From: Candidatus Anderseniibacteriota bacterium
GTDB lineage: Bacteria; Patescibacteriota; JAUYIX01
Length of the DNA: 64,000 bases
Reading direction: 5' to 3'
Assembly (NCBI GenBank): GCA_046350855.1
Contig: JAXLZM010000003.1
Location: 12,311 to 76,310 of the forward strand
The notes below the pieces were generated by a model that worked only from the letters and a program-made list of their open reading frames with translations, was not told the origin of the DNA and did not search any database. A program made the position numbers and the translations under genes. Shown piece by piece: positions 42,244 through 63,989 of this stretch. The stretch's first letter is position 1; each line of letters begins with the position of its first letter.

Positions 42244-43785
42244 CTAGTCTTTCTCAAGATCTTTTAGATCGGTGTCGGTGATCTCAAGTTGGTCCAAAAC
42301 CCATACATGGCGCTCGTTAGTTGGGTCAAATTTACCCAGGTTGAACCGATGTGCCTCTTCTGGCTTTTTGCCGATTAACTGCCAAATAGCCATGTTGCCT
42401 TCTCGATAAATGTAATCGCGGGTAAAGACCGCACCGGGGGTTTTGCCGTCGGTTCCTCTAAAGGTACGGACGGTGTTATCCCAGCCAACATTGGTGCCCA
42501 TTTCTGTGGCTTTGCGTATTTCCATTCCTTGGCTGATCCGGCGCAAAGTTGCATAGCGCTTGTTGATTTCGAAGAGCTCTCTAAAGTTTCTGGGCTTTCC
42601 GTCTATGCCAAGCGCCATACCAACCCCAAGATGGCCTGACGGAATTCCAAAGTCGACCCGGCCTTCATAGGCTTGTTCTGCTGCAATTGCGCCGCCCTCT
42701 TCTCCGCGAATATACCGATCAAGACCCGCTACTCCGAGCAGGCGCAATCTGCTGCGCTCACCACGCTCTCTGCGTAAGGGATGGGTAATAACTTCATGCA
42801 ATACGTAGGGCACTAAATCATTTATTTTTACGGGGTCGGAGGCCTGCTCAGGAACATAGACCTCTTTTTTATCCTGGCTGACTGCATAGCCTTTTCTGTT
42901 TGGATCGATAACGACTTTCCAACCAACTTTATCTAGACTAATGGTTTTAAGCGCGCTCTCGAACTCCTGGGCGACTTGCTCTGAGGTTAAGTCAAGTTGT
43001 TCTGGATGTTGCTTATTTCGCGGCAATTTAGTCTTCTCTACCCCGTATTTTTGCTCAATAGTCTCGATTGTTTCCTTAAACTGCGTACGATTTACTTTTT
43101 CGTAGTAGTCAATGGTCTCTTTAGGTGGGTACAAAAATTGCGTCTCACTCTGGCTTTCACTTGGGAGAAGTGCAAAAAACTCATCAGCCATTTTTTGAAC
43201 TTCTGGATTGTCAGGATGCAATTCACGTGCTTTTTCGGCTTCTTGTCTCACACCGTTAACGGTTGCAAAAAACATATCCTTATCTGGTTTACCAAAAACA
43301 TATTCGGAATAGCGCATAAACCGTCGGCTTTTACCTTCAGCCGTTGCACGAAGCATGCGGATGCTGGCGATCGATTCATTAATGCGCCAAAGATACGCCA
43401 TACGCATAACTAACTCTGGATCCTGCCTAGTCTCTTTTTTCCAAAGATCCGCCATCTTTCTACCAATATCTTTTTCGTTGAGTTGTAGCTCCTTCTTAAG
43501 GCTGAGCAACGTGTCTTCTTGTTGTTGTAATTGAGTCAGCTTCTCTGGAGTCAATTTGGGATAGTCGAGTTCTGGACTCTCGATTTCACCCTTTAAGAAA
43601 GCCTCCCGCTGGGAAGCGATTTTTTGCGGCGTATTCTCGATTGAGCTAATTACTTCAACCCCAAGATAGGGCTGAACACGATCATAGAGCTCCTTATCTA
43701 GCTGAGTTTTTTCCTGCTTTGGAGACTCCGCTGGAAGACCCAGCTCGTACGGTGAAGGACCGCGTTCAACGGAAAACATGGGCAA
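42244..43785 (-). CDS. DUF1704 / QEGLA-motif family protein (MATCAP-like putative HExxxH metallopeptidase), paralog A, AT-richer
   Basis: AYLWRINES, FGKPD, LHEVITHPLRRE, LDRYIRGEEGGAIAAEQAY and GKFDPTNERHVWVLD, all shared with the neighbouring paralog. Confidence 0.5.
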   Translation of the reverse strand: MPMFSVERGPSPYELGLPAESPKQEKTQLDKELYDRVQPYLGVEVISSIENTPQKIASQREAFLKGEIESPELDYPKLTPEKLTQLQQQEDTLLSLKKELQLNEKDIGRKMADLWKKETRQDPELVMRMAYLWRINESIASIRMLRATAEGKSRRFMRYSEYVFGKPDKDMFFATVNGVRQEAEKARELHPDNPEVQKMADEFFALLPSESQSETQFLYPPKETIDYYEKVNRTQFKETIETIEQKYGVEKTKLPRNKQHPEQLDLTSEQVAQEFESALKTISLDKVGWKVVIDPNRKGYAVSQDKKEVYVPEQASDPVKINDLVPYVLHEVITHPLRRERGERSRLRLLGVAGLDRYIRGEEGGAIAAEQAYEGRVDFGIPSGHLGVGMALGIDGKPRNFRELFEINKRYATLRRISQGMEIRKATEMGTNVGWDNTVRTFRGTDGKTPGAVFTRDYIYREGNMAIWQLIGKKPEEAHRFNLGKFDPTNERHVWVLDQLEITDTDLKDLEKD

Positions 43786-56168: not shown

Positions 56169-57479
56169 CTATTTAGTTTCTTCCTTTTTCTCTTCTGCTT
56201 TAGGCTCTTCCTTTTTCTCTGGCTGAACAGCCTTCTCCTCAGCTTTCTTCTCCTCCGGTTTTACTTCGTCTGGTTTTTCAGCTTCTGGCTTTTTCTCGTC
56301 AGCCTTGGATTCACCTTCGGCTTTCTTGTCGTCGGTTTTAGCTTCATCCTTCTTCTCTTCTGGTTTGGCTCCATCCTTAATCGGTTCACCATCTTTTTTG
56401 GTGCCCTCGGACTCTGGTGAGACAACGTCGATCTTCCAACCGGTCAACTTGGCAGCCAGACGAACGTTTTGTCCGCCCTTACCGATTGCCAATGACAATT
56501 GATCCTCATCAACCACGACCTTGGCGCGCTTCTCTTTTTCGTTGAGTTCAACCTTGAGAACTTTTGCAGGCGACATGGCGTGGCGCAGGTATTGATCCTG
56601 ATCCTCATCAAACTGAATAATGTCAATTTTTTCACCACCAAGCTCGGCAATCACAGTCTGGACGCGCGTTCCGCGCTGACCAACCGCTGAACCGACTGGA
56701 TCAACACCCTCTTGCTCGGTTGCAACGGCGATCTTGGTGCGGCTGCCGGCTTCGCGAGCGATGCCTTTGATCAACACAACACCCGAGTAGATCTCAGGGA
56801 CTTCGAGTTCAAACAATTTAGCAACAAATTGTGGGTGCGAACGCGACAAAATAATCTCCGGACCACGGCTCGTATCCCGAACCTCCGCCACATAGACCTT
56901 GAGACGCATACCAACCGTGTAGGTCTCACCCGGAATCTGCTCATGCGGATACAAAACACCGGTGGCCTGGGCCAAATCGACGTAAACGTTGCGGCCTTCG
57001 ATGCGCTGCACCGAGCCGTTGATAATCTCGCCTTCTTTACCCTTAAACTCACGCGATACGATCTCGCGCTCGGCCTCGCGCAAGCGCTGGATGATGACCT
57101 GTTTAGCGGTTTGTGCTGCGATGCGGCCATAGGCAGCGGGCGGATCGAGCTTAGTCTCGATCACATCGCCAACCTTGGCGGATTTCTTCTTCTTTTTGGC
57201 GTCGGCTAGAGCGACATGCTCGCGCGGGTTGAGCTCTTTTTCTTTTTGTTCATCCGGATCCTCGGGGATCGACTCAACGACCGTCTTTACATCAAAAACC
57301 TGCGAGCTGCCGTCTTGCACACTAAATTTGACCTTGATGTTTTGGGTCGGCTCGCCAAAATCCTTGCGATACGCGGCGGCGAGTGCAGCCTCGATCGTCT
57401 CGACGATTTTTTCGACCGGAATGTTTTTCTCAGCGGCGATTTGTTCGATTGCGAGCTCAAATTCTTTCTTTTGTGCCAT
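56169..57479 (-). CDS. nusA: Transcription termination/antitermination factor NusA with Lys/Glu-rich C-terminal tail
   Basis: N-terminal domain, S1 and KH domains (KVELNEKEKRAKVVVDEDQLSLAIGKGGQNVRLA). Confidence 0.9.
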   Translation of the reverse strand: MAQKKEFELAIEQIAAEKNIPVEKIVETIEAALAAAYRKDFGEPTQNIKVKFSVQDGSSQVFDVKTVVESIPEDPDEQKEKELNPREHVALADAKKKKKSAKVGDVIETKLDPPAAYGRIAAQTAKQVIIQRLREAEREIVSREFKGKEGEIINGSVQRIEGRNVYVDLAQATGVLYPHEQIPGETYTVGMRLKVYVAEVRDTSRGPEIILSRSHPQFVAKLFELEVPEIYSGVVLIKGIAREAGSRTKIAVATEQEGVDPVGSAVGQRGTRVQTVIAELGGEKIDIIQFDEDQDQYLRHAMSPAKVLKVELNEKEKRAKVVVDEDQLSLAIGKGGQNVRLAAKLTGWKIDVVSPESEGTKKDGEPIKDGAKPEEKKDEAKTDDKKAEGESKADEKKPEAEKPDEVKPEEKKAEEKAVQPEKKEEPKAEEKKEETK

Positions 57480-57691
57480 GGTGGTTGGTTTAACTAAGTA
57501 TTTAGGTAGTACAAAAAAGGGCTAGCCTACTCAGCTAGCCTTATGGGGCAACCATATATGAGAATAAACCCACTGTCAACCCTTGATTGACAAAGTGCTA
57601 TTTTTGTGTTAGCAAGGACCGTCGTCCTTTGTCATACCGTGCCTCCCCGCTAGTGCTCTTATGACGAGAGCATTGCCAGGGAGGCAGGACA

Positions 57692-58027
57692 ATGAAAAAG
57701 TTTGGTTTTGATTTTCCGTGGCGGATGATAGGGATCGTAGTCGCATTAGTAGGGATAAGTACCTTCACGATCGATCTGTACTTCGGCCTCAGGAATGGTT
57801 GGGCAATCAGCACGGTCCCACCGGCCATTGCAGAGAAGTATCCCTTCATGACCTACCGCACCTGGTACCTCTATATCGAGGCGTTACTTGCGTTGATGGG
57901 TTGCACGCTCTTCTTGCTTTCCTGGATCAAGAATCCATTTGAGCGAATGGGGCACTGGCTTTCCGCAAATATCAAGGAAGGCTTTTTGTCTGGAGGCAAA
58001 AAGTCTGGCTCCAACAACGTAAATTAG
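57692..58027 (+). CDS. Hypothetical small membrane protein (three TM helices)
   Basis: GGGAGG SD 7 nt upstream of the ATG. Hydrophobic helices. Confidence 0.45.
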   Translation: MKKFGFDFPWRMIGIVVALVGISTFTIDLYFGLRNGWAISTVPPAIAEKYPFMTYRTWYLYIEALLALMGCTLFLLSWIKNPFERMGHWLSANIKEGFLSGGKKSGSNNVN

Positions 58028-58052
58028 CGATTCAGCAAAATGGAGAACACCA

Positions 58053-59168
58053 ATGATGCAAACCGCGATATGTGGAATCGGAATGCACATGAGCCTGCAC
58101 CTATCGCAGGCACTGACACAGCGTATGAATCTCGAGCAATCCCTCGAACAACGTCTCTCGGTCAAACAGTCTCTTAAGCTCGCGCTCAAGCTGTACCTCA
58201 AGCGCGAGGACGAGATCAAGAAGCTCTACGCCAAAGCGCTGCGTCTGGGCAAGGTGTATCGGTACAAGCGCTACGGCATGGAGTTCGAGTTTGCTTGCGT
58301 GTCCGTCAAAGACACGCCGCCCGAGATTTACAAGCACTCAGGACACGCGTTCTCGCACTGCTTGTTCAATCCCTGGGAGGCATTCTTTGGAGGCATCAAG
58401 TTCGCCCTGTCGCGCGGATCGTGGTTGCTCTTTGTGATCGAAGACATGTACGGAGAGCCGCTGCCTCAAGCCTGCATTGACTACGCGGCGGTACACGAGC
58501 GAGGAGAACAAGTCACCCTAGGCGATCACAACCTGGCCTCCAAGCTCGAGTTCGCTATCGCGGCCAAGGAGCAAAAGCTGCGCTGGTACATGGAGTGGAC
58601 CGAGGCGACCTGCCCAGTTAAGTTTGCCGATGTGTTTACCTACCAAGTGCACGTGGAGCTCCCACAAGGCGAGGAGGCTGCGGAGCTGGATGCCTGTCTA
58701 GAGGTGTTTCAAGCGAGTGCAGAGGCCCAAGCAGTACGCAGCATGATGGAGGAGTTCGAGTGGCCGATGTCGCTCCTGCGCAAACTCGAGCTGTACGCGG
58801 AGGCCAACGACACGATGGCAGGCCACGTGACACGTATGTTCGAGAGTTGCAGCGTAGTCGTCTCAGGGGCATCGACGCCGATCGGCATCATCAATGGCAA
58901 GATTGGAGAGCTGCTTACTAAAGAGCTCACCAAGATTGCCACGGGTGAACTACGCCGGTGCTTGAGTATCCCTCGTCTCTCGACGGTTTGGGAGCAGGGC
59001 TACAGGCAACTCTCAGCGGTCCACGCGGAGATGGTCATCAAACGCGGTGAACTCGTCGGCATGCTGGCCTTCGCGGATGAACTCAAGGATCTCGAGAACG
59101 GTGGCTCGCTGCCCAACAGAGGCGTTTTCTCGCCGCACTTTGAGGAGGCTCTCAAATGGGTCAGCTAG
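58053..59168 (+). CDS. Hypothetical protein (371 aa) with Gln/Leu-rich heptad N-terminus
   Basis: Long ORF with normal composition. No recognised catalytic motif. The N-terminus superficially resembles sigma-54 region I, but no sigma-54 core is present. Confidence 0.5.
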   Translation: MMQTAICGIGMHMSLHLSQALTQRMNLEQSLEQRLSVKQSLKLALKLYLKREDEIKKLYAKALRLGKVYRYKRYGMEFEFACVSVKDTPPEIYKHSGHAFSHCLFNPWEAFFGGIKFALSRGSWLLFVIEDMYGEPLPQACIDYAAVHERGEQVTLGDHNLASKLEFAIAAKEQKLRWYMEWTEATCPVKFADVFTYQVHVELPQGEEAAELDACLEVFQASAEAQAVRSMMEEFEWPMSLLRKLELYAEANDTMAGHVTRMFESCSVVVSGASTPIGIINGKIGELLTKELTKIATGELRRCLSIPRLSTVWEQGYRQLSAVHAEMVIKRGELVGMLAFADELKDLENGGSLPNRGVFSPHFEEALKWVS

Positions 59169-59348
59169 CAGCTAAACGTAGGGAGCAACGAATTTCGTTG
59201 CTCCTCTTTTTTTATTTCGACCTACCGAGCAGCAATCAAGCTCAAGATTGACAAACGGCAAAAAATATGCAATGATCTGTGGTCCTGATGGCTGCGAACG
59301 TTGTTTCCAATCGGCCATAGCGAGCCGCACCCAAGGAGGTAAATCGCG

Positions 59349-59792
59349 ATGTTCAAGAAGCATACGGTTTTCATTCATCCGTCGCTGCGCAAGATGCTGG
59401 AGGATCGAGGCTACGCTTACGAGATGCGGCTGGCACTGCACGCAGCACTGAGCTTCACCACTTTGCTCGTTAGTGAGCACCTACGCCGTGAGTACCAGGG
59501 TCCGTGGGAAGTGCACGAGGCTCACTTCAAAAAGCTCTTAGGCCTGGGCTGGAAGTACGCCGATGGTTTGCACGCTGAGTCCAACGATCTCACTGGGGCG
59601 CTAGAGAAGGCCTATCGTATCGAGTCGACCATCAGGCGCTACATGATGGACAAGATGCTGCGCGTCGATATGCGCTTCTACTGTCGCGGCGAAAAAGAGT
59701 CTTTCTGGGAGATCGACTTTGAGGTTAACCAAGAGGGGCAACTCGTTGGCTTCGGCTCAGGAAGTCTCTTTAGAAAGAAGGTCGCTGGCTGA
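59349..59792 (+). CDS. Hypothetical protein (147 aa)
   Basis: Co-oriented with its neighbours. No domain recognised. Confidence 0.4.
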   Translation: MFKKHTVFIHPSLRKMLEDRGYAYEMRLALHAALSFTTLLVSEHLRREYQGPWEVHEAHFKKLLGLGWKYADGLHAESNDLTGALEKAYRIESTIRRYMMDKMLRVDMRFYCRGEKESFWEIDFEVNQEGQLVGFGSGSLFRKKVAG

Positions 59793-59894
59793 ATCATCCA
59801 AGGGCACCAACGTCGTTACGTTAGTGCCCTTCTTTTTTCTCATACATTCTTCGACCAACTTGCCTGCGAACAAGCCATCACCCATGATGTACAC

Positions 59895-60956
59895 ATGGAA
59901 AAAGCGTATGAAATTTCAGGTGGACTCAATACTGGTCGGGAAGAATTATACAACGAACTCAAAATCCCTAGAGAAGAAGGCAAGCTACCCGTCGAGGGAG
60001 AACTTTCCAAAACACCAGATCACCTCGAGATCATCGAGATGAGCGACGCATTGATTCAAAAAGAGTTTCAAGAATTAGGCCTGTTGCAGCCGATGTTTTT
60101 AGCGCCGGAACGAGTTCATTACTTTTCTGAAAACGAATTCCAAAAACATTACGCGAAGCCAACCGGTAAACCGAATTACGAAGTTGGCGGATACGCAGAT
60201 ATACACCTTGGTGCGACATACATTTCCGTAGAAAATCCGAATGTCCAGGATTTCCTTGTGGAGTCACGCGGAGGCGTACGTTATGCCGCGGGGGACATTG
60301 CATTAGAAGAGTTCCCGCATGACGATCCAGAACGTGAGAAGAAAATTGATATTCGTGCCGACGAACTTGAAAGCAATTGGCACGCGCAGGTAAAAAAGCT
60401 CGCACTGCTTGCGCGCACCATGCATGAGGCCTTACACCTTGCCTCCTTTGAAAAATACTATAAAAACAGTAACGACGAGTACCGTGGCTCGCGGAGCGGA
60501 TACTATGCGTATTTGGATGGTAAGGGGTCATTTGCAAGTCTCAATGAAGCCATTACAGAAAAAATTGCCTGGGAGCTGGTCGACAAAAAGCTAGAAATGG
60601 TGCCCGAGGGCCCGATCGAATGGAAGAGAGACACCAAAGCGAGAACCGAATCGTACGATGATGATAGGTACATTCTTGACATAATTGTCGAAAAGATCGC
60701 CGCACAAAAACAGGAGTTGGGCGATGTCGTTTGGAGAAGATTCAAAATGGGTTACTTGAGTGGACGAGTTATGCATTTACGGGATATCGAACGTACATTT
60801 GGCAAAGGCGCGCTGCGTATGTATGCGGAGCTAACTCCTGAAACCGTCGAAAAAAATAAACGAGTACTCGTGACCTATTTTGAGAGCGATGACCCTAAAG
60901 AACGGGCTGAGCTTGAAAAAGAGATTCGCGAGAAAACAAAAAGTCCCGCACAGTAA
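59895..60956 (+). CDS. Hypothetical protein (353 aa) with HExxH motif (MHEALHLASFE); AT-richer than surrounding DNA
   Basis: HEALH plus a downstream Glu suggests a zincin-like metallopeptidase fold. Composition shift seen by eye. Confidence 0.45.
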   Translation: MEKAYEISGGLNTGREELYNELKIPREEGKLPVEGELSKTPDHLEIIEMSDALIQKEFQELGLLQPMFLAPERVHYFSENEFQKHYAKPTGKPNYEVGGYADIHLGATYISVENPNVQDFLVESRGGVRYAAGDIALEEFPHDDPEREKKIDIRADELESNWHAQVKKLALLARTMHEALHLASFEKYYKNSNDEYRGSRSGYYAYLDGKGSFASLNEAITEKIAWELVDKKLEMVPEGPIEWKRDTKARTESYDDDRYILDIIVEKIAAQKQELGDVVWRRFKMGYLSGRVMHLRDIERTFGKGALRMYAELTPETVEKNKRVLVTYFESDDPKERAELEKEIREKTKSPAQ

Positions 60957-61069
60957 TACTGTACGGGACTAGTCCAGCGGTCCCGCCCACCCTTATTGGT
61001 GATCTTGATGGCTAGCCAAGATCGGCTTTCGTGGTGGATCCCCGCACACCCAACCGTTCTGCAAGAGGC

Positions 61070-61540
61070 CTACTCCTTGTCGTTCGACAAGTAGCTACGA
61101 ATGATGTCGGCCAGCTCAATCACCCTTTGGGGCGAGAACTCGACCGTTTCTTCACCATCCTGCTCCCAACGGACAAAGAGCTTGCGATCCACTCCGAGCG
61201 CCTCGAGGTCAGCGATCTGCCTGGTCAGCAATGCCTTGTGGTCGTCTCGCGCCTGCACTTCTGGCGTGACTATTTCGACGTCATAGTAGTCGTGGTAGTC
61301 AAAGTTGATCGTATGGCCGGCCGCAAAGTGGCATATCAGGCCGTGGCTTTCGCCACTGAGCGTCTCCGTGAGTGCCTGCCGCAGCAGCTCACGAAGTTCG
61401 CCAGCCGTGCTGCGCCATTGGGTACTCTGACCCGAACTATGGCACATCGAGGAGATGTTGATCTCCTGGCTGTCTGGGACGCTCCCAAGGCGGTTAGACC
61501 ACTTGCAGGCCTTTTCGGTCAGTCGTTGACGATCGTCCAT
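61070..61540 (-). CDS. Hypothetical protein (156 aa)
   Basis: ORF convergent with the 59895..60956 gene. Confidence 0.4.
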   Translation of the reverse strand: MDDRQRLTEKACKWSNRLGSVPDSQEINISSMCHSSGQSTQWRSTAGELRELLRQALTETLSGESHGLICHFAAGHTINFDYHDYYDVEIVTPEVQARDDHKALLTRQIADLEALGVDRKLFVRWEQDGEETVEFSPQRVIELADIIRSYLSNDKE

Positions 61541-61753
61541 CGTTCACCTCCTTTTTACTGCGGGGCCAACCGCATTTGTAATGTACGAGAGCCAAAGGCT
61601 CTTTCGCAGGTTACGAGTTCTACCAGCTAGCTCTGGATGAACTCATCTTCTACGAGAGAGCTGCGAGTCAGTAGATACCGACTTGCGAGCTATGCGGGAA
61701 TTACGCGTCGCACTGCGCGTCCGTTGAACGTCGGCAACGGATCCGAGGCGTGA

Positions 61754-62416
61754 TCAGACTTCGAACCGAATCCCGCCTGCATGCACGATTGGTGCGAGCA
61801 GCGAATCCGTCACGGCCGCTCGCCGGAGGCGCTCATCCCGGATGACGATACAGTAGGGAACGCTCGCAATGTACGAGCGAGTCCGCCTGTCCGTCGCCGC
61901 AAGCGCTCTCTGGAGAGGTGCATCTCGACCTGACTGCGCCAGCACCCAGCGGATGCACTCGTTATCGTCCCGATCCTCGAGTAGCCAAGCGACATCCTGC
62001 ATCCATGCAGTGTCGAAAAGCGTCTGAGACTGGAGGTCCTGCAAGTGCTCGTGCAGGATGTCGCACCGAGCTAGCGCGAGCTGGACGAGCGCATCGGCCT
62101 GTTCACCGGTCAACGAGCGAGCCCACAGTGCTGGGATTCCAGCCTGCTCGCTTGCGAGCGTCATGATCTCATCCAGGCTCCGGAGTTTTCTCCCCGAGGG
62201 GAGCTCCTGGAGCCTTGCATACAGCGCAACCGCCACGGCCTCCGTGTATGCACTACCGATTTCGCTCAGCTCCGATACGTAATTCACTAACCACGTGTCG
62301 GTGCAGTCCTTCAGCCACTCTCTGATAGGAGAGTGGATCGCCGCCAATGGCGGCAAGGTCAGGTCCAACATTTCGTTTTTCCTTTGGTTGGCACTGTTTT
62401 GGTTGGATGCCGCCAC
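61754..62416 (-). CDS. Hypothetical protein (220 aa)
   Basis: Long ORF with no recognised domain. Confidence 0.4.
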   Translation of the reverse strand: MAASNQNSANQRKNEMLDLTLPPLAAIHSPIREWLKDCTDTWLVNYVSELSEIGSAYTEAVAVALYARLQELPSGRKLRSLDEIMTLASEQAGIPALWARSLTGEQADALVQLALARCDILHEHLQDLQSQTLFDTAWMQDVAWLLEDRDDNECIRWVLAQSGRDAPLQRALAATDRRTRSYIASVPYCIVIRDERLRRAAVTDSLLAPIVHAGGIRFEV

Positions 62417-62559
62417 GATATGTAGCGCTCCAGTAGTTTATAAAGGTACATTGAGTCAAAGACTCTTTTTTACAGGACGAAGTGCGTTTGTGCAGATTCA
62501 TCCGGTAGAAAAGAGGATCAAGTCGACGACACAACTTGATCACACGGTTTCACCAAGGG

Positions 62560-63072
62560 CTATGTGTTGCCCCGATGCCCCCGCTCACGAAACCGATCAA
62601 GCAGCGTCGAACGCCTTGGCCGTGAGATAGCTTTCGACGTTTCGGACGGGTTCGACGACGCGGATCGGTCACTGCCGTACTTGTGTTGGGCAAGCTTCGC
62701 TTCCATCTCGGCCCAACTTCGGCGATAGTTCCGCAACATGGTGCGGATCTTGGCATCAACCTCGTGAGGGTTTTTGTCGACCGTCCCGGTATAGTACGAG
62801 CCAAATCTACGGATGCCCTGCTGCTCGAGCACATGACGCAGCTTGCCGACTTGGCGATCGGCAATCTTGGCCGGCTGCAGAAGCGCTGGTACCAGGCCGA
62901 GGCACATGACGCAGTGTTTACCGTTCATCCCGTCGCAGCCGCAGTATGAGCAACCCGTAGGTCGTGCGACTTTGTGGCGACTGGTGATGCGGTAGACATG
63001 GCTATCCTCGAACCAGAGCACGAGCTCCTGGCGACGGAAAGTTACAACACGGTCGTAGTAGTCATTACCCAT
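62560..63072 (-). CDS. Hypothetical protein with Cys cluster CSYCGCDGMNGKHCVMC (SWIM-like or zinc-ribbon)
   Basis: Start set at MGNDYYD (ATG at 63070-63072), which has an AAGGGGG SD. C-terminal Arg/Ser-rich tail. Confidence 0.45.
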   Translation of the reverse strand: MGNDYYDRVVTFRRQELVLWFEDSHVYRITSRHKVARPTGCSYCGCDGMNGKHCVMCLGLVPALLQPAKIADRQVGKLRHVLEQQGIRRFGSYYTGTVDKNPHEVDAKIRTMLRNYRRSWAEMEAKLAQHKYGSDRSASSNPSETSKAISRPRRSTLLDRFRERGHRGNT

Positions 63073-63149
63073 GGGCGCCCCCTTTCTTTTTTGAATTTTG
63101 AAGAACGTGAGATTGACTCTCTCCAAAACGACCACGCGAATGATCAACT

Positions 63150-63186
63150 AGGAGAGAGGGAGGAACGAAGTATGCTTCGTTCCTCC
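63150..63186. repeat. SD-containing hairpin element, copy B (GAGAGGGAGGAACGAAG-UAUG-CUUCGUUCCUCC)
   Basis: 12-bp perfect stem, with an AUG in the loop on the plus strand. Confidence 0.6.
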
Positions 63187-63556
63187 AATACCCATGAGGG
63201 CGCCTAACGGCGACAAGTCTCATGAATCGTAGAAGTGCGCATTGGTCCGGCACTGAGTGTCCTGTCTACTCGACAAGGCCAGCCCTTACCGTCAGGTCGA
63301 GCTACCCATTGCTCTTCCCGCTACTTCCGACACACGGCTGGATTTGTCCTATCCACTTGGGTGATGGAATCGGTCTCCAGACGCTCTTTGTTTGCCTGTT
63401 TTGCTTGTCCGCCTGACCATCACTAACGGTCTTAAGCGGCAGGTCAAACAGCCGAGGCATGGATGGATGCGCGCCATCCGCCCGACACTTTGTAATGAAC
63501 AAGAGCTTGTTGCCCTTCTTGAGAGATTCTCTGTTAGGGCGCGAGAGAATCGCTCG

Positions 63557-63589
63557 AGAAGAGGGAGGAACGAGCGATATCGTTCCTCC
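63557..63589. repeat. SD-containing hairpin element, copy C (GAAGAGGGAGGAACGA-GCGAUA-UCGUUCCUCC)
   Basis: 10-bp perfect stem with the same arms as copy B. Confidence 0.6.
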
Positions 63590-63665
63590 GTTGTTCGTAT
63601 GTCCAACGTCGACCGAAGACCCAGATTTCCCTAACGACAACCGCCTGCGCACGGTCGCCAGATAC

Positions 63666-63989
63666 CTAGAACGCTTCGGGGAGCTGGCCGAGCACTTCGC
63701 CCAGCCAGCGCAGGGTGAACCACATCGGCGTGGTCCGGTCCTTGCAGAAGTCTCCCGTCTCCTTGTTGAGGAGCAGGTAGTTGGCCTCCCGACCAATGCG
63801 GTTGCGGTTCCAGGCCTCGTTAAAGGCCAGGATGAACTCGCCCGTCGGTATCCCGCACGCACCGGTGAGTTTGTGCAGGATGGCGGTCGCCTCGGTGGTG
63901 CCGATGAAGTGGGCCACCTCGTCCTGACCGGTGCAGCTGAGCAACTCCTTGTAGATCAGAGCGAGACGGGTCATGGGCTGGGACATCAC
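63666..63989 (-). CDS. Hypothetical protein (107 aa)
   Basis: Balanced composition. Preferred over the overlapping Arg/Ser-rich frame 63302..63862. Confidence 0.4.
   Translation of the reverse strand: MMSQPMTRLALIYKELLSCTGQDEVAHFIGTTEATAILHKLTGACGIPTGEFILAFNEAWNRNRIGREANYLLLNKETGDFCKDRTTPMWFTLRWLGEVLGQLPEAF

What the first reader, a model, noticed from the sequence alone, without database searches (positions are those of the whole stretch)
57692..63989. Island of seven consecutive hypothetical proteins (candidate undescribed system)
After nusA there are three co-oriented genes. They are a small membrane protein, a 371-aa protein with a Gln/Leu heptad N-terminus, and then a 147-aa and a 353-aa protein. 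The 353-aa protein has an HEALH zincin-like motif and visibly lower GC. Four convergent genes follow, of 156, 220, about 170 (Cys cluster CSYCGCDGMNGKHCVMC) and 107 aa. None has a recognisable housekeeping function. The compositional shift, the convergent operon layout and the nearby repeat hairpins suggest an accessory island, possibly defence- or toxin-related.
Basis: inference. Interest (0 to 1): 0.55.

Follow-up and report, generated by a model that had tools for sequence, protein, structure and literature searches.

The report
Patchwork accessory gene region in CPR bacterium
The eight unknown genes next to nusA are real and lie in a 9-kb stretch missing from the closest relatives, but they are a patchwork of separately inherited rare genes, including a new zinc-protease-like protein, rather than one coordinated system.

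Summary
The ORFs exist as described, but there are eight, not seven. None hits Pfam, NCBIfam, PHROGs or PADLOC. The genome is a Candidatus Andersenbacteria (CPR/Patescibacteria) MAG.

Synteny with the four nearest relatives shows that the yraN-to-nusA interval is a variable hotspot. It is 124 bp in one relative and holds unrelated genes in two others. It carries no integrase, att repeats or flanking tRNA, and its composition is mosaic.

The genes do not travel together:
- B belongs to a Patescibacteria family of about 54 clusters found in unrelated contexts. Its AF2 model is confident, it has no PDB relative, and it has an invariant HExxE-x6-H motif.
- C has about 9 relatives, and the one context examined is unrelated.
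- Only E, F and G show recurring linkage, in one contig each (G-F, E-F).

"Accessory" is supported; "one undescribed defence or toxin system" is not. Side finds are a conserved tandem-hairpin element, a conserved 440-nt spacer and, beyond the window, an orphan structured-RNA candidate. Interest is modest.

The parts
57502..57542 (.). Conserved 42-nt hairpin element upstream of nusA. It is the last sequence shared with relatives and marks the left boundary of the variable segment (about 57543-57546).
   Evidence: blastn: 93% identity to L006 9880-9921, and L009 homology ends at 57545. The Logan contig break falls at 57517.
57692..58027 (+). Gene A: 111-aa basic protein (pI 9.6) with two hydrophobic spans, 25 nt upstream of B.
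   Evidence: No family hits.
58053..59168 (+). Gene B: 359-371 aa, member of a Patescibacteria family of unknown function. It has a long Q/L-rich N-terminal helix, a small alpha/beta domain and a helical C-terminal half.
58491..58529 (+). Invariant B-family motif VHERGEQVTLGDH (H136, E137, E140, H147 in 359-aa numbering): candidate metal or catalytic site.
   Evidence: Invariant columns in the 53-sequence alignment A2; position.
59181..59205 (+). Terminator-like hairpin with T-run after B, followed by a promoter-like site before C. This suggests A-B and C-D are separate transcription units.
   Evidence: L001 1665-1689; promoter-like site at L001 1732-1760.
59349..59792 (+). Gene C: 147 aa, rare family with about 9 relatives of 105-143 aa.
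   Evidence: The one context seen (L096, next to rplU/rmuC) holds no other island gene.
59895..60956 (+). Gene D: 353-aa gluzincin-like metallopeptidase of an orphan family, with no signal peptide. Low GC points to recent acquisition.
60942..60970 (-). Hairpin with T-run between the convergent D and E genes (terminator-like).
   Evidence: L001 3426-3454.
61070..61540 (-). Gene E: 156-aa acidic cytosolic protein.
   Evidence: One homolog (40% identity, E 1e-35) lies 0.7 kb upstream of the F homolog in L092. A JGI metagenome scan found no other.
61754..62371 (-). Gene F: 205 aa (the ORF extends to 62416), acidic, with a highly conserved N-terminus MLDLxLPPxAxIHSPIREWLKDCTD.
   Evidence: 2 homologs at 50-52% identity in two long CPR contigs, plus a partial one next to the G homolog in L094.
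62560..63072 (-). Gene G: 170-aa basic protein with a conserved Cys cluster (C-x2-C-x-C-x7-C-x2-C), read as a probable zinc ribbon or knuckle.
   Evidence: One homolog (62% identity) keeps the cluster. The G-to-F adjacency is conserved in L094. A terminator-like hairpin follows G at 62516-62541.
63073..63513 (-). Conserved noncoding spacer between H and G: a possible long structured 5' leader or separate RNA. It includes one half-copy of the hairpin element at 63155-63188.
   Evidence: Aligns to the region upstream of the G homolog in L094 with near-identical blocks (the longest about 40 nt) and frame-breaking indels. 16 compensatory pairs, on two sequences only.
63510..63591 (-). Tandem-hairpin element of about 80 nt, copy 1 (downstream of H). 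Copy 2 lies just beyond the window, upstream of H (L001 6533-6612).
   Evidence: 58-nt direct repeat at 93% identity. The same element sits upstream of the H homolog in L095. Consensus fold has two compensatory pairs; MFE z = -4.6. It is absent from the rest of the window and, as an exact core pattern, from JGI metagenomes and IMG/VR.
63666..63986 (-). Gene H: 106 aa, GC3 0.89, which is atypical for this genome.
   Evidence: 3 relatives at 49-78% identity; composition.

Best explanation
The region is the larger part of a lineage-specific variable segment of about 9.0-9.6 kb. The segment fills a gene-content hotspot between yraN (plus a parDE-like toxin-antitoxin pair) and nusA in a Candidatus Andersenbacteria genome. 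It is not one system. It is a mosaic of at least four independently distributed units drawn from the rare accessory gene pool of Patescibacteria.

1. A-B. B is a Patescibacteria family with a conserved H-E-x-x-E-x6-H site. I infer, without proof, that it is a metal-dependent enzyme.
2. C-D. D is a cytoplasmic gluzincin-type zinc metallopeptidase of an orphan family. It was acquired recently, judging by its low GC.
3. E, F, G and H. These are small cytosolic proteins, each with its own long upstream spacer. G is a zinc-ribbon-like basic protein. G-F and E-F linkage recurs in the few relatives known. One relative's cluster contains a phage-family gene, so this part may derive from a mobile element or phage.
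4. Beyond the window: a structured-RNA candidate, a TrmB-family regulator and a cupin.

The segment most likely accumulated by repeated recombination-driven gain and loss at this site, not by integration of a single element. Shown: the absence from relatives, the scattered distribution of the gene families, the mosaic composition and the zincin fold and motifs of D. Inferred: the mode of acquisition, any enzymatic activity of B or D, and any functional coupling of E, F, G and H.
For: - Organism: NCBI names the identical D protein as Candidatus Andersenbacteria.
- Synteny: in the nearest relatives, MTase-N281-yraN, or part of that block, lies upstream of nusA (NusA identity: L006 89%, L007 86%, L008 79%, L009 75%; in L008 the interval itself was not examined). 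The gap holds nothing in L009 (124 bp), parDE plus a His-phosphatase in L006, and pyrG plus a membrane protein plus a 180-aa protein in L007. No A-H, TrmB or cupin homolog occurs in any of the 80 nusA loci.
- Boundaries: DNA homology stops at window 57542-57545 and resumes beyond about 66560-66848.
- Mobility: no integrase; no boundary repeats found over L001; the 12 tRNAs in the window are all upstream of 49.4 kb.
- Composition is mosaic: D 0.46, TrmB 0.47 and ParE/antitoxin 0.44, against a host mean of 0.555; H has GC3 0.89.
- Scattered families: B contexts, D contexts, C context.
- Recurring links: G-F in L094; E-F in L092.
- The gene between E and F in L092/L093 hits phrog_30542 at 3e-22.
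- D as a zincin.
- B family and model.
Against: - Contexts could be examined for only a few homologs, and many contigs are 0.5-4 kb. Co-occurrence could therefore be missed, especially for D, G and H.
- A was never searched for homologs.
- Weak thematic links exist between the variable clusters that hold B, D and F homologs. A shared receiver-like protein family lies next to a D homolog and in an F cluster (phmmer 1e-19). TrmB regulators recur nearby. A looser functional association therefore cannot be excluded.
- B, C, E, F and G have host-like composition, so they may be old residents rather than recent arrivals.
- No function was demonstrated for any gene.
Confidence: 0.65

Rival explanations
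1. The E-F-G-H genes, with their conserved hairpin and leader RNA elements, form a genuine small functional module. It would derive from a phage or other mobile element, for example a moron-like, anti-defence or host-interaction cassette, and the shared structured RNA motif would regulate it post-transcriptionally. The A-D genes are unrelated neighbours.
For: - G-F adjacency and the upstream noncoding DNA are conserved in L094.
- E and F homologs lie 0.7 kb apart in L092 despite a rearranged order.
- The same tandem-hairpin element precedes the H homolog in L095, with compensatory changes.
- A PHROG-family gene sits between the E and F homologs.
Against: - Only 1-3 relatives exist per family.
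- L093 keeps F without E.
- L092 and L093 lack G and H.
- No IMG/VR relatives for F, G or H.
- The L094 linkage may simply reflect shared ancestry of a related lineage.
- The long spacers, one with a terminator-like hairpin, argue against a single operon.
Confidence: 0.2
2. The whole block is a single undescribed defence or toxin system. One version would have D as a zincin toxin or effector, with the small proteins acting as immunity or regulatory partners.
For: - The segment is accessory and lies next to a ParE-like toxin-antitoxin pair.
- D is a predicted metallopeptidase.
- All genes are uncharacterised.
Against: - No PADLOC hits.
- B, C and D homologs occur alone in unrelated contexts.
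- Mosaic composition.
- Separate transcription units.
- No secretion, toxin-delivery or nucleic-acid-targeting domains detected.
Confidence: 0.07
3. The region is a decayed prophage or integrative element that inserted once upstream of nusA and has since lost its integrase and structural genes.
For: - Insertion relative to relatives.
- Low-GC genes.
- A phage-family gene in a related cluster.
- The assembly break at the junction in the public contig could reflect a presence/absence polymorphism.
Against: - No integrase, recombinase, capsid, terminase or other PHROG hits among A-H, and none among the genes called on L001.
- No boundary direct repeats or flanking tRNA.
- Different relatives carry different, non-phage content at the same site, which fits a hotspot better.
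- Three distinct composition classes occur inside the segment.
Confidence: 0.1

Closest known systems
Genomic islands and variable-region hotspots of Patescibacteria (PMC12455944)
   Same: A multi-gene segment that is absent from the nearest relatives at a syntenic site. It is rich in hypothetical genes, partly atypical in composition, and adjacent to a toxin-antitoxin pair.
   Different: It has no integrase, tRNA or att signature. Its composition is mosaic rather than uniform. Different relatives hold different cargo at the same site, so it behaves as a recombination hotspot rather than a discrete mobile island.
Gluzincin metallopeptidases: the thermolysin-like catalytic domain of MEROPS clan MA(E), such as M1 aminopeptidases and M4 thermolysin
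Patescibacteria-specific protein families of unknown function (family-content studies such as Meheust et al. 2019, cited from my own knowledge and listed as a reference in PMC12455944)
   Same: B belongs to a family found so far only in Patescibacteria MAGs and unassigned metagenome contigs. It has a consistent length of about 360 aa and no Pfam domain.
   Different: I could not check whether this particular family has been catalogued. Here it has a confident AF2 model with no PDB relative and an invariant HExxE-x6-H motif.
Sigma-54 region I (the activator-interacting domain, Pfam PF00309)
   Same: By eye, the conserved N-terminal L-x-L-x-x-S-Q-x-L-x-L-R-Q-x-L-E pattern of B resembles the Q/L-rich region I of sigma-54.
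   Different: Only 1 of 53 family members gives even a weak hit (E 0.02) to Sigma54_AID, which is what chance predicts. The rest of B shares nothing with sigma-54. I treat this as a resemblance only.
Integron attC sites and REP/MITE-like hairpin repeats
   Same: An imperfect-palindrome element of about 80 nt flanks a single small gene (H) and recurs in another organism next to the homologous gene.
   Different: Only 2.5 copies are present. No integron integrase is nearby. The element is absent from the rest of the window, and its exact core is absent from JGI metagenomes and IMG/VR. It has two tandem hairpins rather than the single attC architecture.

Membership tests
Horizontally acquired genomic island | Absent from closely related genomes at the syntenic position | tested here: met
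   In L006, L007 and L009 the yraN-nusA interval lacks all island genes, and in L008 no island gene was found in the locus. No A-H homolog occurs in any of the 80 nusA loci.
Horizontally acquired genomic island | Uniformly atypical composition relative to the host | tested here: not met
   The composition is mosaic. D, TrmB and ParE/antitoxin are low in GC (z -3 to -4). H is high (GC3 z +5). B, C, E, F and G are host-like. Tetranucleotide deviation is only z 1-2.5, similar to other spots in the window.
Horizontally acquired genomic island | Mobility signature: integrase or transposase, flanking direct repeats, tRNA target | tested here: not met
   No such Pfam or PHROG hits. No boundary repeats over L001. 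No tRNA or tmRNA in L001, and none nearer than 49.4 kb in the window.
Known anti-phage defence systems (PADLOC-DB v2) | Component proteins match defence-system HMMs | tested here: not met
   0 hits at E no higher than 0.1 for all nine ORFs tested.
Multi-gene 'system' (any kind) | Components co-localise in other genomes | tested here: not met
   B, C and D homologs occur without any other island gene. The only links are G-F, once, and E-F, in one of two genomes. The sample of contexts is small.
Gluzincin zinc metallopeptidase (protein D) | HExxH motif conserved in the family | tested here: met
   H177, E178 and H181 are invariant in all 4 members.
Gluzincin zinc metallopeptidase (protein D) | Downstream Glu as third zinc ligand on a separate helix | tested here: inconclusive
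   N217-E218-A219-x-T221 is invariant and lies at the start of predicted helix 214-235. Its role as a ligand is inferred only; coordinates were not inspected.
Gluzincin zinc metallopeptidase (protein D) | Thermolysin-like catalytic fold | tested here: met
Gluzincin zinc metallopeptidase (protein D) | Membership of a described peptidase family (Pfam/NCBIfam model) | tested here: not met
   No Pfam, NCBIfam or PDB-sequence hit at E no higher than 1-10.
Gluzincin zinc metallopeptidase (protein D) | Zinc binding and peptidase activity | not testable with these tools
   Needs biochemistry.
Sigma-54 region I-like (protein B N-terminus) | Match to the Sigma54_AID profile | tested here: not met
   1 of 53 members at E 0.02, and none for the window protein.
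Zincin (protein B) | Profile or fold similarity to zincins | tested here: not met
Rfam RNA families (hairpin element, H-G spacer, RNA candidate beyond the window) | Match to a curated covariance model | tested here: not met
   Only tRNAs at the gathering threshold. Nothing credible at E no higher than 1-10.

The most novel reading that the evidence does not exclude
Two readings remain open.

(a) B founds a Patescibacteria-specific enzyme family with a fold not represented in the PDB and a new H-E-x-x-E...H metal site.

(b) E, F, G and H, together with the conserved tandem-hairpin and leader RNA, form a previously undescribed mobile-element-derived module. It would act in the interaction of CPR cells with phage or with their host, and a new cis-regulatory RNA would control it.

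The orphan structured RNA of about 440-490 nt next to TrmB, just beyond the window, could be a third new element.
Probability: 0.2. Interest if true: 0.6.

Novelty: new member of a known kind. Interest (0 to 1): 0.3.

Why it matters
As a whole, the region is an ordinary example of the gene-content hotspots that make up much of the unexplored accessory genome of CPR bacteria. It therefore does not open a new system. Three by-products have some value:
- a well-conserved Patescibacteria family (B) with a confident model, no structural relative in the PDB and a clear candidate active site, which makes a tractable target for structural or biochemical work;
- a new, very rare gluzincin-like family (D);
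- conserved structured noncoding elements linked to rare small genes. CPR regulatory RNAs are, to my knowledge, little described, so these may be of interest.

Tried and rejected
**Family libraries**
- Pfam, NCBIfam, PHROGs and PADLOC scans of all ORFs gave nothing significant.
- The 186-aa ORF at 63302-63862 is rejected as spurious. The independent gene caller did not call it. Its partial matches to L094 come from conserved noncoding DNA with frame-breaking indels.

**Profiles and structures**
- PDB sequence-profile searches for the B, D, C, F and H families gave nothing.
- hhalign of B against D shows they are unrelated.
- The sigma-54 region I idea for B's N-terminus is not supported.

**Collection scans**
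- IMG/VR scans for the G, B, D, F and H families found no viral relatives. The C alignment was too divergent to scan.
- A JGI metagenome scan for E found none.
- An exact-core search for the hairpin element in JGI metagenomes and IMG/VR found none.

**Context and boundaries**
- The neighbours of B homologs were compared with A and C, looking for a conserved partner of B. None was found.
- No att-like boundary repeats were found.

**RNA**
- Rfam and ARAGORN on the noncoding stretches gave nothing.

**A workaround that worked**
The hits mapped cleanly to the three segments.

Full report
**1. Observation**

- After nusA (56169-57479, minus strand) there are four co-oriented plus-strand genes:
  - A: 57692-58027, 111 aa, two hydrophobic spans.
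  - B: 58053 or 58089 to 59168, 371 or 359 aa.
  - C: 59349-59792, 147 aa.
  - D: 59895-60956, 353 aa, HEALH at residues 177-181.
- Four convergent minus-strand genes follow:
  - E: 61070-61540, 156 aa.
  - F: 61754-62371, 205 aa from the conserved start; the ORF is 220 aa.
  - G: 62560-63072, 170 aa, with CSYCGCDGMNGKHCVMC.
  - H: 63666-63986, 106 aa.

That makes eight genes, not seven. A public Logan contig (L001) is 99.985% identical over the shared 6,484 bases and was gene-called independently. It shows the same eight genes and extends 5.7 kb beyond the window. None of the eight has a meaningful hit in Pfam, NCBIfam, PHROGs or PADLOC. A ninth ORF (63302-63862) is spurious.

**2. Organism and setting**

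NCBI labels the identical D protein 'Candidatus Andersenbacteria bacterium'. The window has 12 scattered tRNA genes and typical CPR housekeeping genes: trigger factor, H+-pyrophosphatase and NusA. Beyond H, L001 carries:
- 1.36 kb without a called gene;
- a TrmB-family regulator and a cupin;
- a ParE-like toxin with an 83-aa partner;
- yraN (UPF0102), a 281-aa protein and a methyltransferase.

**3. The region is accessory**

I fetched 80 loci around NusA homologs from species-representative genomes and searched them with all the island proteins and the flanking proteins.
- The nearest relatives (NusA identity 89, 86, 79 and 75%) keep nusA-HPPase, followed by trigger factor and the CBS-domain gene where detected, on one side. 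On the other side they keep MTase-N281-yraN, or part of that block.
- None of the 80 loci encodes a homolog of A-H, TrmB or the cupin.
- The yraN-nusA interval differs in each relative examined:
  - L009: 124 bp.
  - L006: the ParE pair plus a histidine phosphatase.
  - L007: pyrG, a 534-aa membrane protein and a 180-aa protein.
- DNA homology to L006 and L009 stops at window 57542-57545, just after a conserved 42-nt hairpin upstream of nusA. It resumes only beyond window-equivalent 66.56-66.85 kb.

I found no integrase or transposase, no boundary repeats over L001, and no adjacent tRNA or tmRNA.

Composition is mosaic:
- D (GC 0.461), TrmB (0.467) and the ParE pair (0.44) lie 3-4 SD below the window's genes (mean 0.555).
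- H has GC3 0.89, 5 SD above.
- B, C, E, F and G are host-like or slightly higher.

This pattern fits several acquisitions of different ages better than one insertion. Genomic islands and transferred genes are reported to be common in Patescibacteria (PMC12455944).

**4. Do the genes travel together?**

| Family | Relatives found | Contexts examined | Other island genes nearby? |
|---|---|---|---|
| B | 54 hits including the self-match; 35-53% identity, nearly all full length; all from Patescibacteria MAGs or unassigned metagenome contigs; no Pfam domain | 3 genomes: between small unknown genes and an ABC transporter; beside a copper ATPase and an amidase; downstream of nusA-HPPase-trigger factor | None |
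| D | 3 homologs among 5.8 billion clusters | 3 short contigs, two of them near-duplicates of one locus | None |
| C | about 9 relatives among 1.84 billion representatives | 1 contig, beside rplU and rmuC | None |
| G | 1 relative | 1.2-kb contig L094 | G homolog followed by the N-terminus of an F homolog (E 1e-10) |
| F | 2 relatives on long CPR contigs | L092 and L093 | E homolog 0.7 kb upstream in L092, absent in L093; no G or H in either |
| H | 3 relatives | 511-bp contig L095, too short to show neighbours | Same upstream hairpin element |

A loose E-F-G linkage survives.

Two further hints point to a shared accessory or mobile gene pool:
- The gene between the E and F homologs in L092 and L093 belongs to phage family phrog_30542 (E 3e-22).
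- A receiver-like protein next to a D homolog is homologous to one in the F cluster of L093 (phmmer 1e-19).

IMG/VR scans for the B, D, F, G and H families found nothing.

**5. What the individual proteins look like**

*Protein D*
- In the four-member alignment, H177-E178-x-x-H181 and N217-E218-A-x-T221 are invariant, as is a C-terminal MHLRDIERTFGKG block.
- The AF2 model has pLDDT 72 and pTM 0.74.
- HExxH followed by NEAxTE recalls thermolysin's HExxH...NExxSD. That comparison is from my own knowledge.
- D has no signal peptide and no match to any described peptidase family.
- I file it as gluzincin-like, in an orphan family, with activity untested.

*Protein B*
- The 53-sequence alignment has 25 invariant columns. 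They include H136, E137, E140 and H147 (AVHERGEQVTLGDHNLA) and D119; S89-H90-C91 is nearly invariant (at least 90% of sequences).
- The AF2 model is confident (pLDDT 87.5, pTM 0.80). It shows a long N-terminal helix, a four-stranded alpha/beta unit, two helices carrying the motif, and then a helical bundle.
- hhalign shows no relation to D.
- The Q/L-rich N-terminus looks like sigma-54 region I by eye, but this is not supported statistically.
- I infer, with low confidence, a metal-dependent enzyme.

*The other proteins*
- G is basic (pI 10) with a conserved Cys cluster, probably a zinc ribbon.
- E, F and H are acidic or near-neutral cytosolic proteins.
- Nothing more could be learned about C, F or H from PDB profile searches.

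**6. Transcription layout and noncoding elements**

- A terminator-like hairpin with a T-run follows B, and a promoter-like site precedes C.
- Another hairpin sits between the convergent D and E genes, and another follows G.
- The minus-strand genes are separated by 188-590 nt. This is not a tight operon.

Around H there is a tandem-hairpin element of about 80 nt.
- One copy lies downstream of H (window 63510-63591).
- One lies upstream of H, just beyond the window (L001 6533-6612).
- A half copy lies at 63155-63188.
- The same element precedes the H homolog in L095, and its second hairpin precedes the G homolog in L094. Two base pairs change in a compensatory way. The fold is far more stable than shuffles (z -4.6).
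- It occurs nowhere else in the window. Its exact core is absent from JGI metagenomes and IMG/VR.

The 440-nt H-G spacer aligns to L094 with near-identical blocks, the longest about 40 nt, and with frame-breaking indels. It is better conserved than G itself.

These features suggest structured RNA: a leader, a terminator or stabiliser, or a small RNA. With two or three sequences this stays a suggestion.

**7. Conclusion**

'Accessory island' is supported by synteny. 'One undescribed defence or toxin system' is not supported.

The best explanation is a mosaic variable segment at a hotspot upstream of nusA. It contains a member of a Patescibacteria-restricted family of unknown fold (B), an orphan gluzincin-like protein (D), and a loosely linked set of rare small genes (E-H) with conserved RNA-like elements. 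I give this a confidence of about 0.65.

The rivals are a genuine E-H module (0.2), a decayed integrative element (0.1) and a single system (0.07).

The whole is a new member of a known kind, a CPR genomic island or hotspot. Its interest is modest. The most useful follow-ups are the B family and the noncoding elements.

Noticed in passing
L001 7340-7835 (+ strand), about 0.9-1.35 kb beyond the window end (window-equivalent 64856-65351): A gene-free stretch between H and the TrmB gene folds far better than shuffles (441 nt; z -7.3 on the plus strand, -6.1 on the minus strand). It is preceded by a promoter-like TTTACA-18-TAAACT and ends in a GC-rich hairpin with a T-rich tail. It has no Rfam, tRNA or tmRNA hit, no ORF longer than 105 aa, and no homolog in any fetched locus. 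It is a candidate orphan structured RNA.
   Followed up: partly
window 63510-63591 and 63155-63188; L001 6533-6612; L095 1-95; L094 about 375-400: A tandem-hairpin element of about 80 nt flanks gene H. It recurs next to the homologous H and G genes in two other organisms, with compensatory base changes. It is absent elsewhere in the window, and its exact core is absent from JGI metagenomes and IMG/VR.
   Followed up: yes
window 63073-63513 (minus strand): The noncoding spacer between H and G is better conserved with contig L094 than the G coding sequence. It has near-identical blocks, the longest about 40 nt, and indels that break every reading frame. It may be a long structured leader or an independent RNA.
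   Followed up: partly
window 57502-57542: A 42-nt hairpin-containing element upstream of nusA is 93% identical in relative L006. The public Logan contig breaks inside it, at 57517. The break could reflect strain-level presence/absence of the island in the sample.
   Followed up: partly
window 42244-43785, and 3-kb windows within 41-45 kb and 47-51 kb: A 513-aa ORF has low GC (0.468; GC3 0.463). The tetranucleotide outliers around it (z up to 2.9) are as strong as those over the island. These may be other acquired patches in the window.
   Followed up: no
L004 252-1043, L093 11659-12165, L086 6018-6437: Receiver-like proteins ('MKILVIDD...HHDHP') with no significant Pfam receiver-domain match lie next to a D homolog and inside an F-homolog cluster; these two are related (phmmer 1e-19). 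A third protein with a similar-looking N-terminus in a B-homolog cluster shows no significant match (E about 0.3). This hints at a shared accessory gene pool among CPR variable regions.
   Followed up: partly
L092 9462-9842 and L093 9462-9842: The 126-aa gene between the E and F homologs matches phage protein families phrog_30542 (E 3e-22) and phrog_21731 (E 8e-17), both of unknown function.
   Followed up: no
L001 9044-9564 (beyond the window): A ParE-like toxin (90 aa) with an overlapping 83-aa partner is shared with relative L006 but not with L009. It is very low in GC (0.44), so it looks like a separately acquired toxin-antitoxin pair at the same hotspot.
   Followed up: partly
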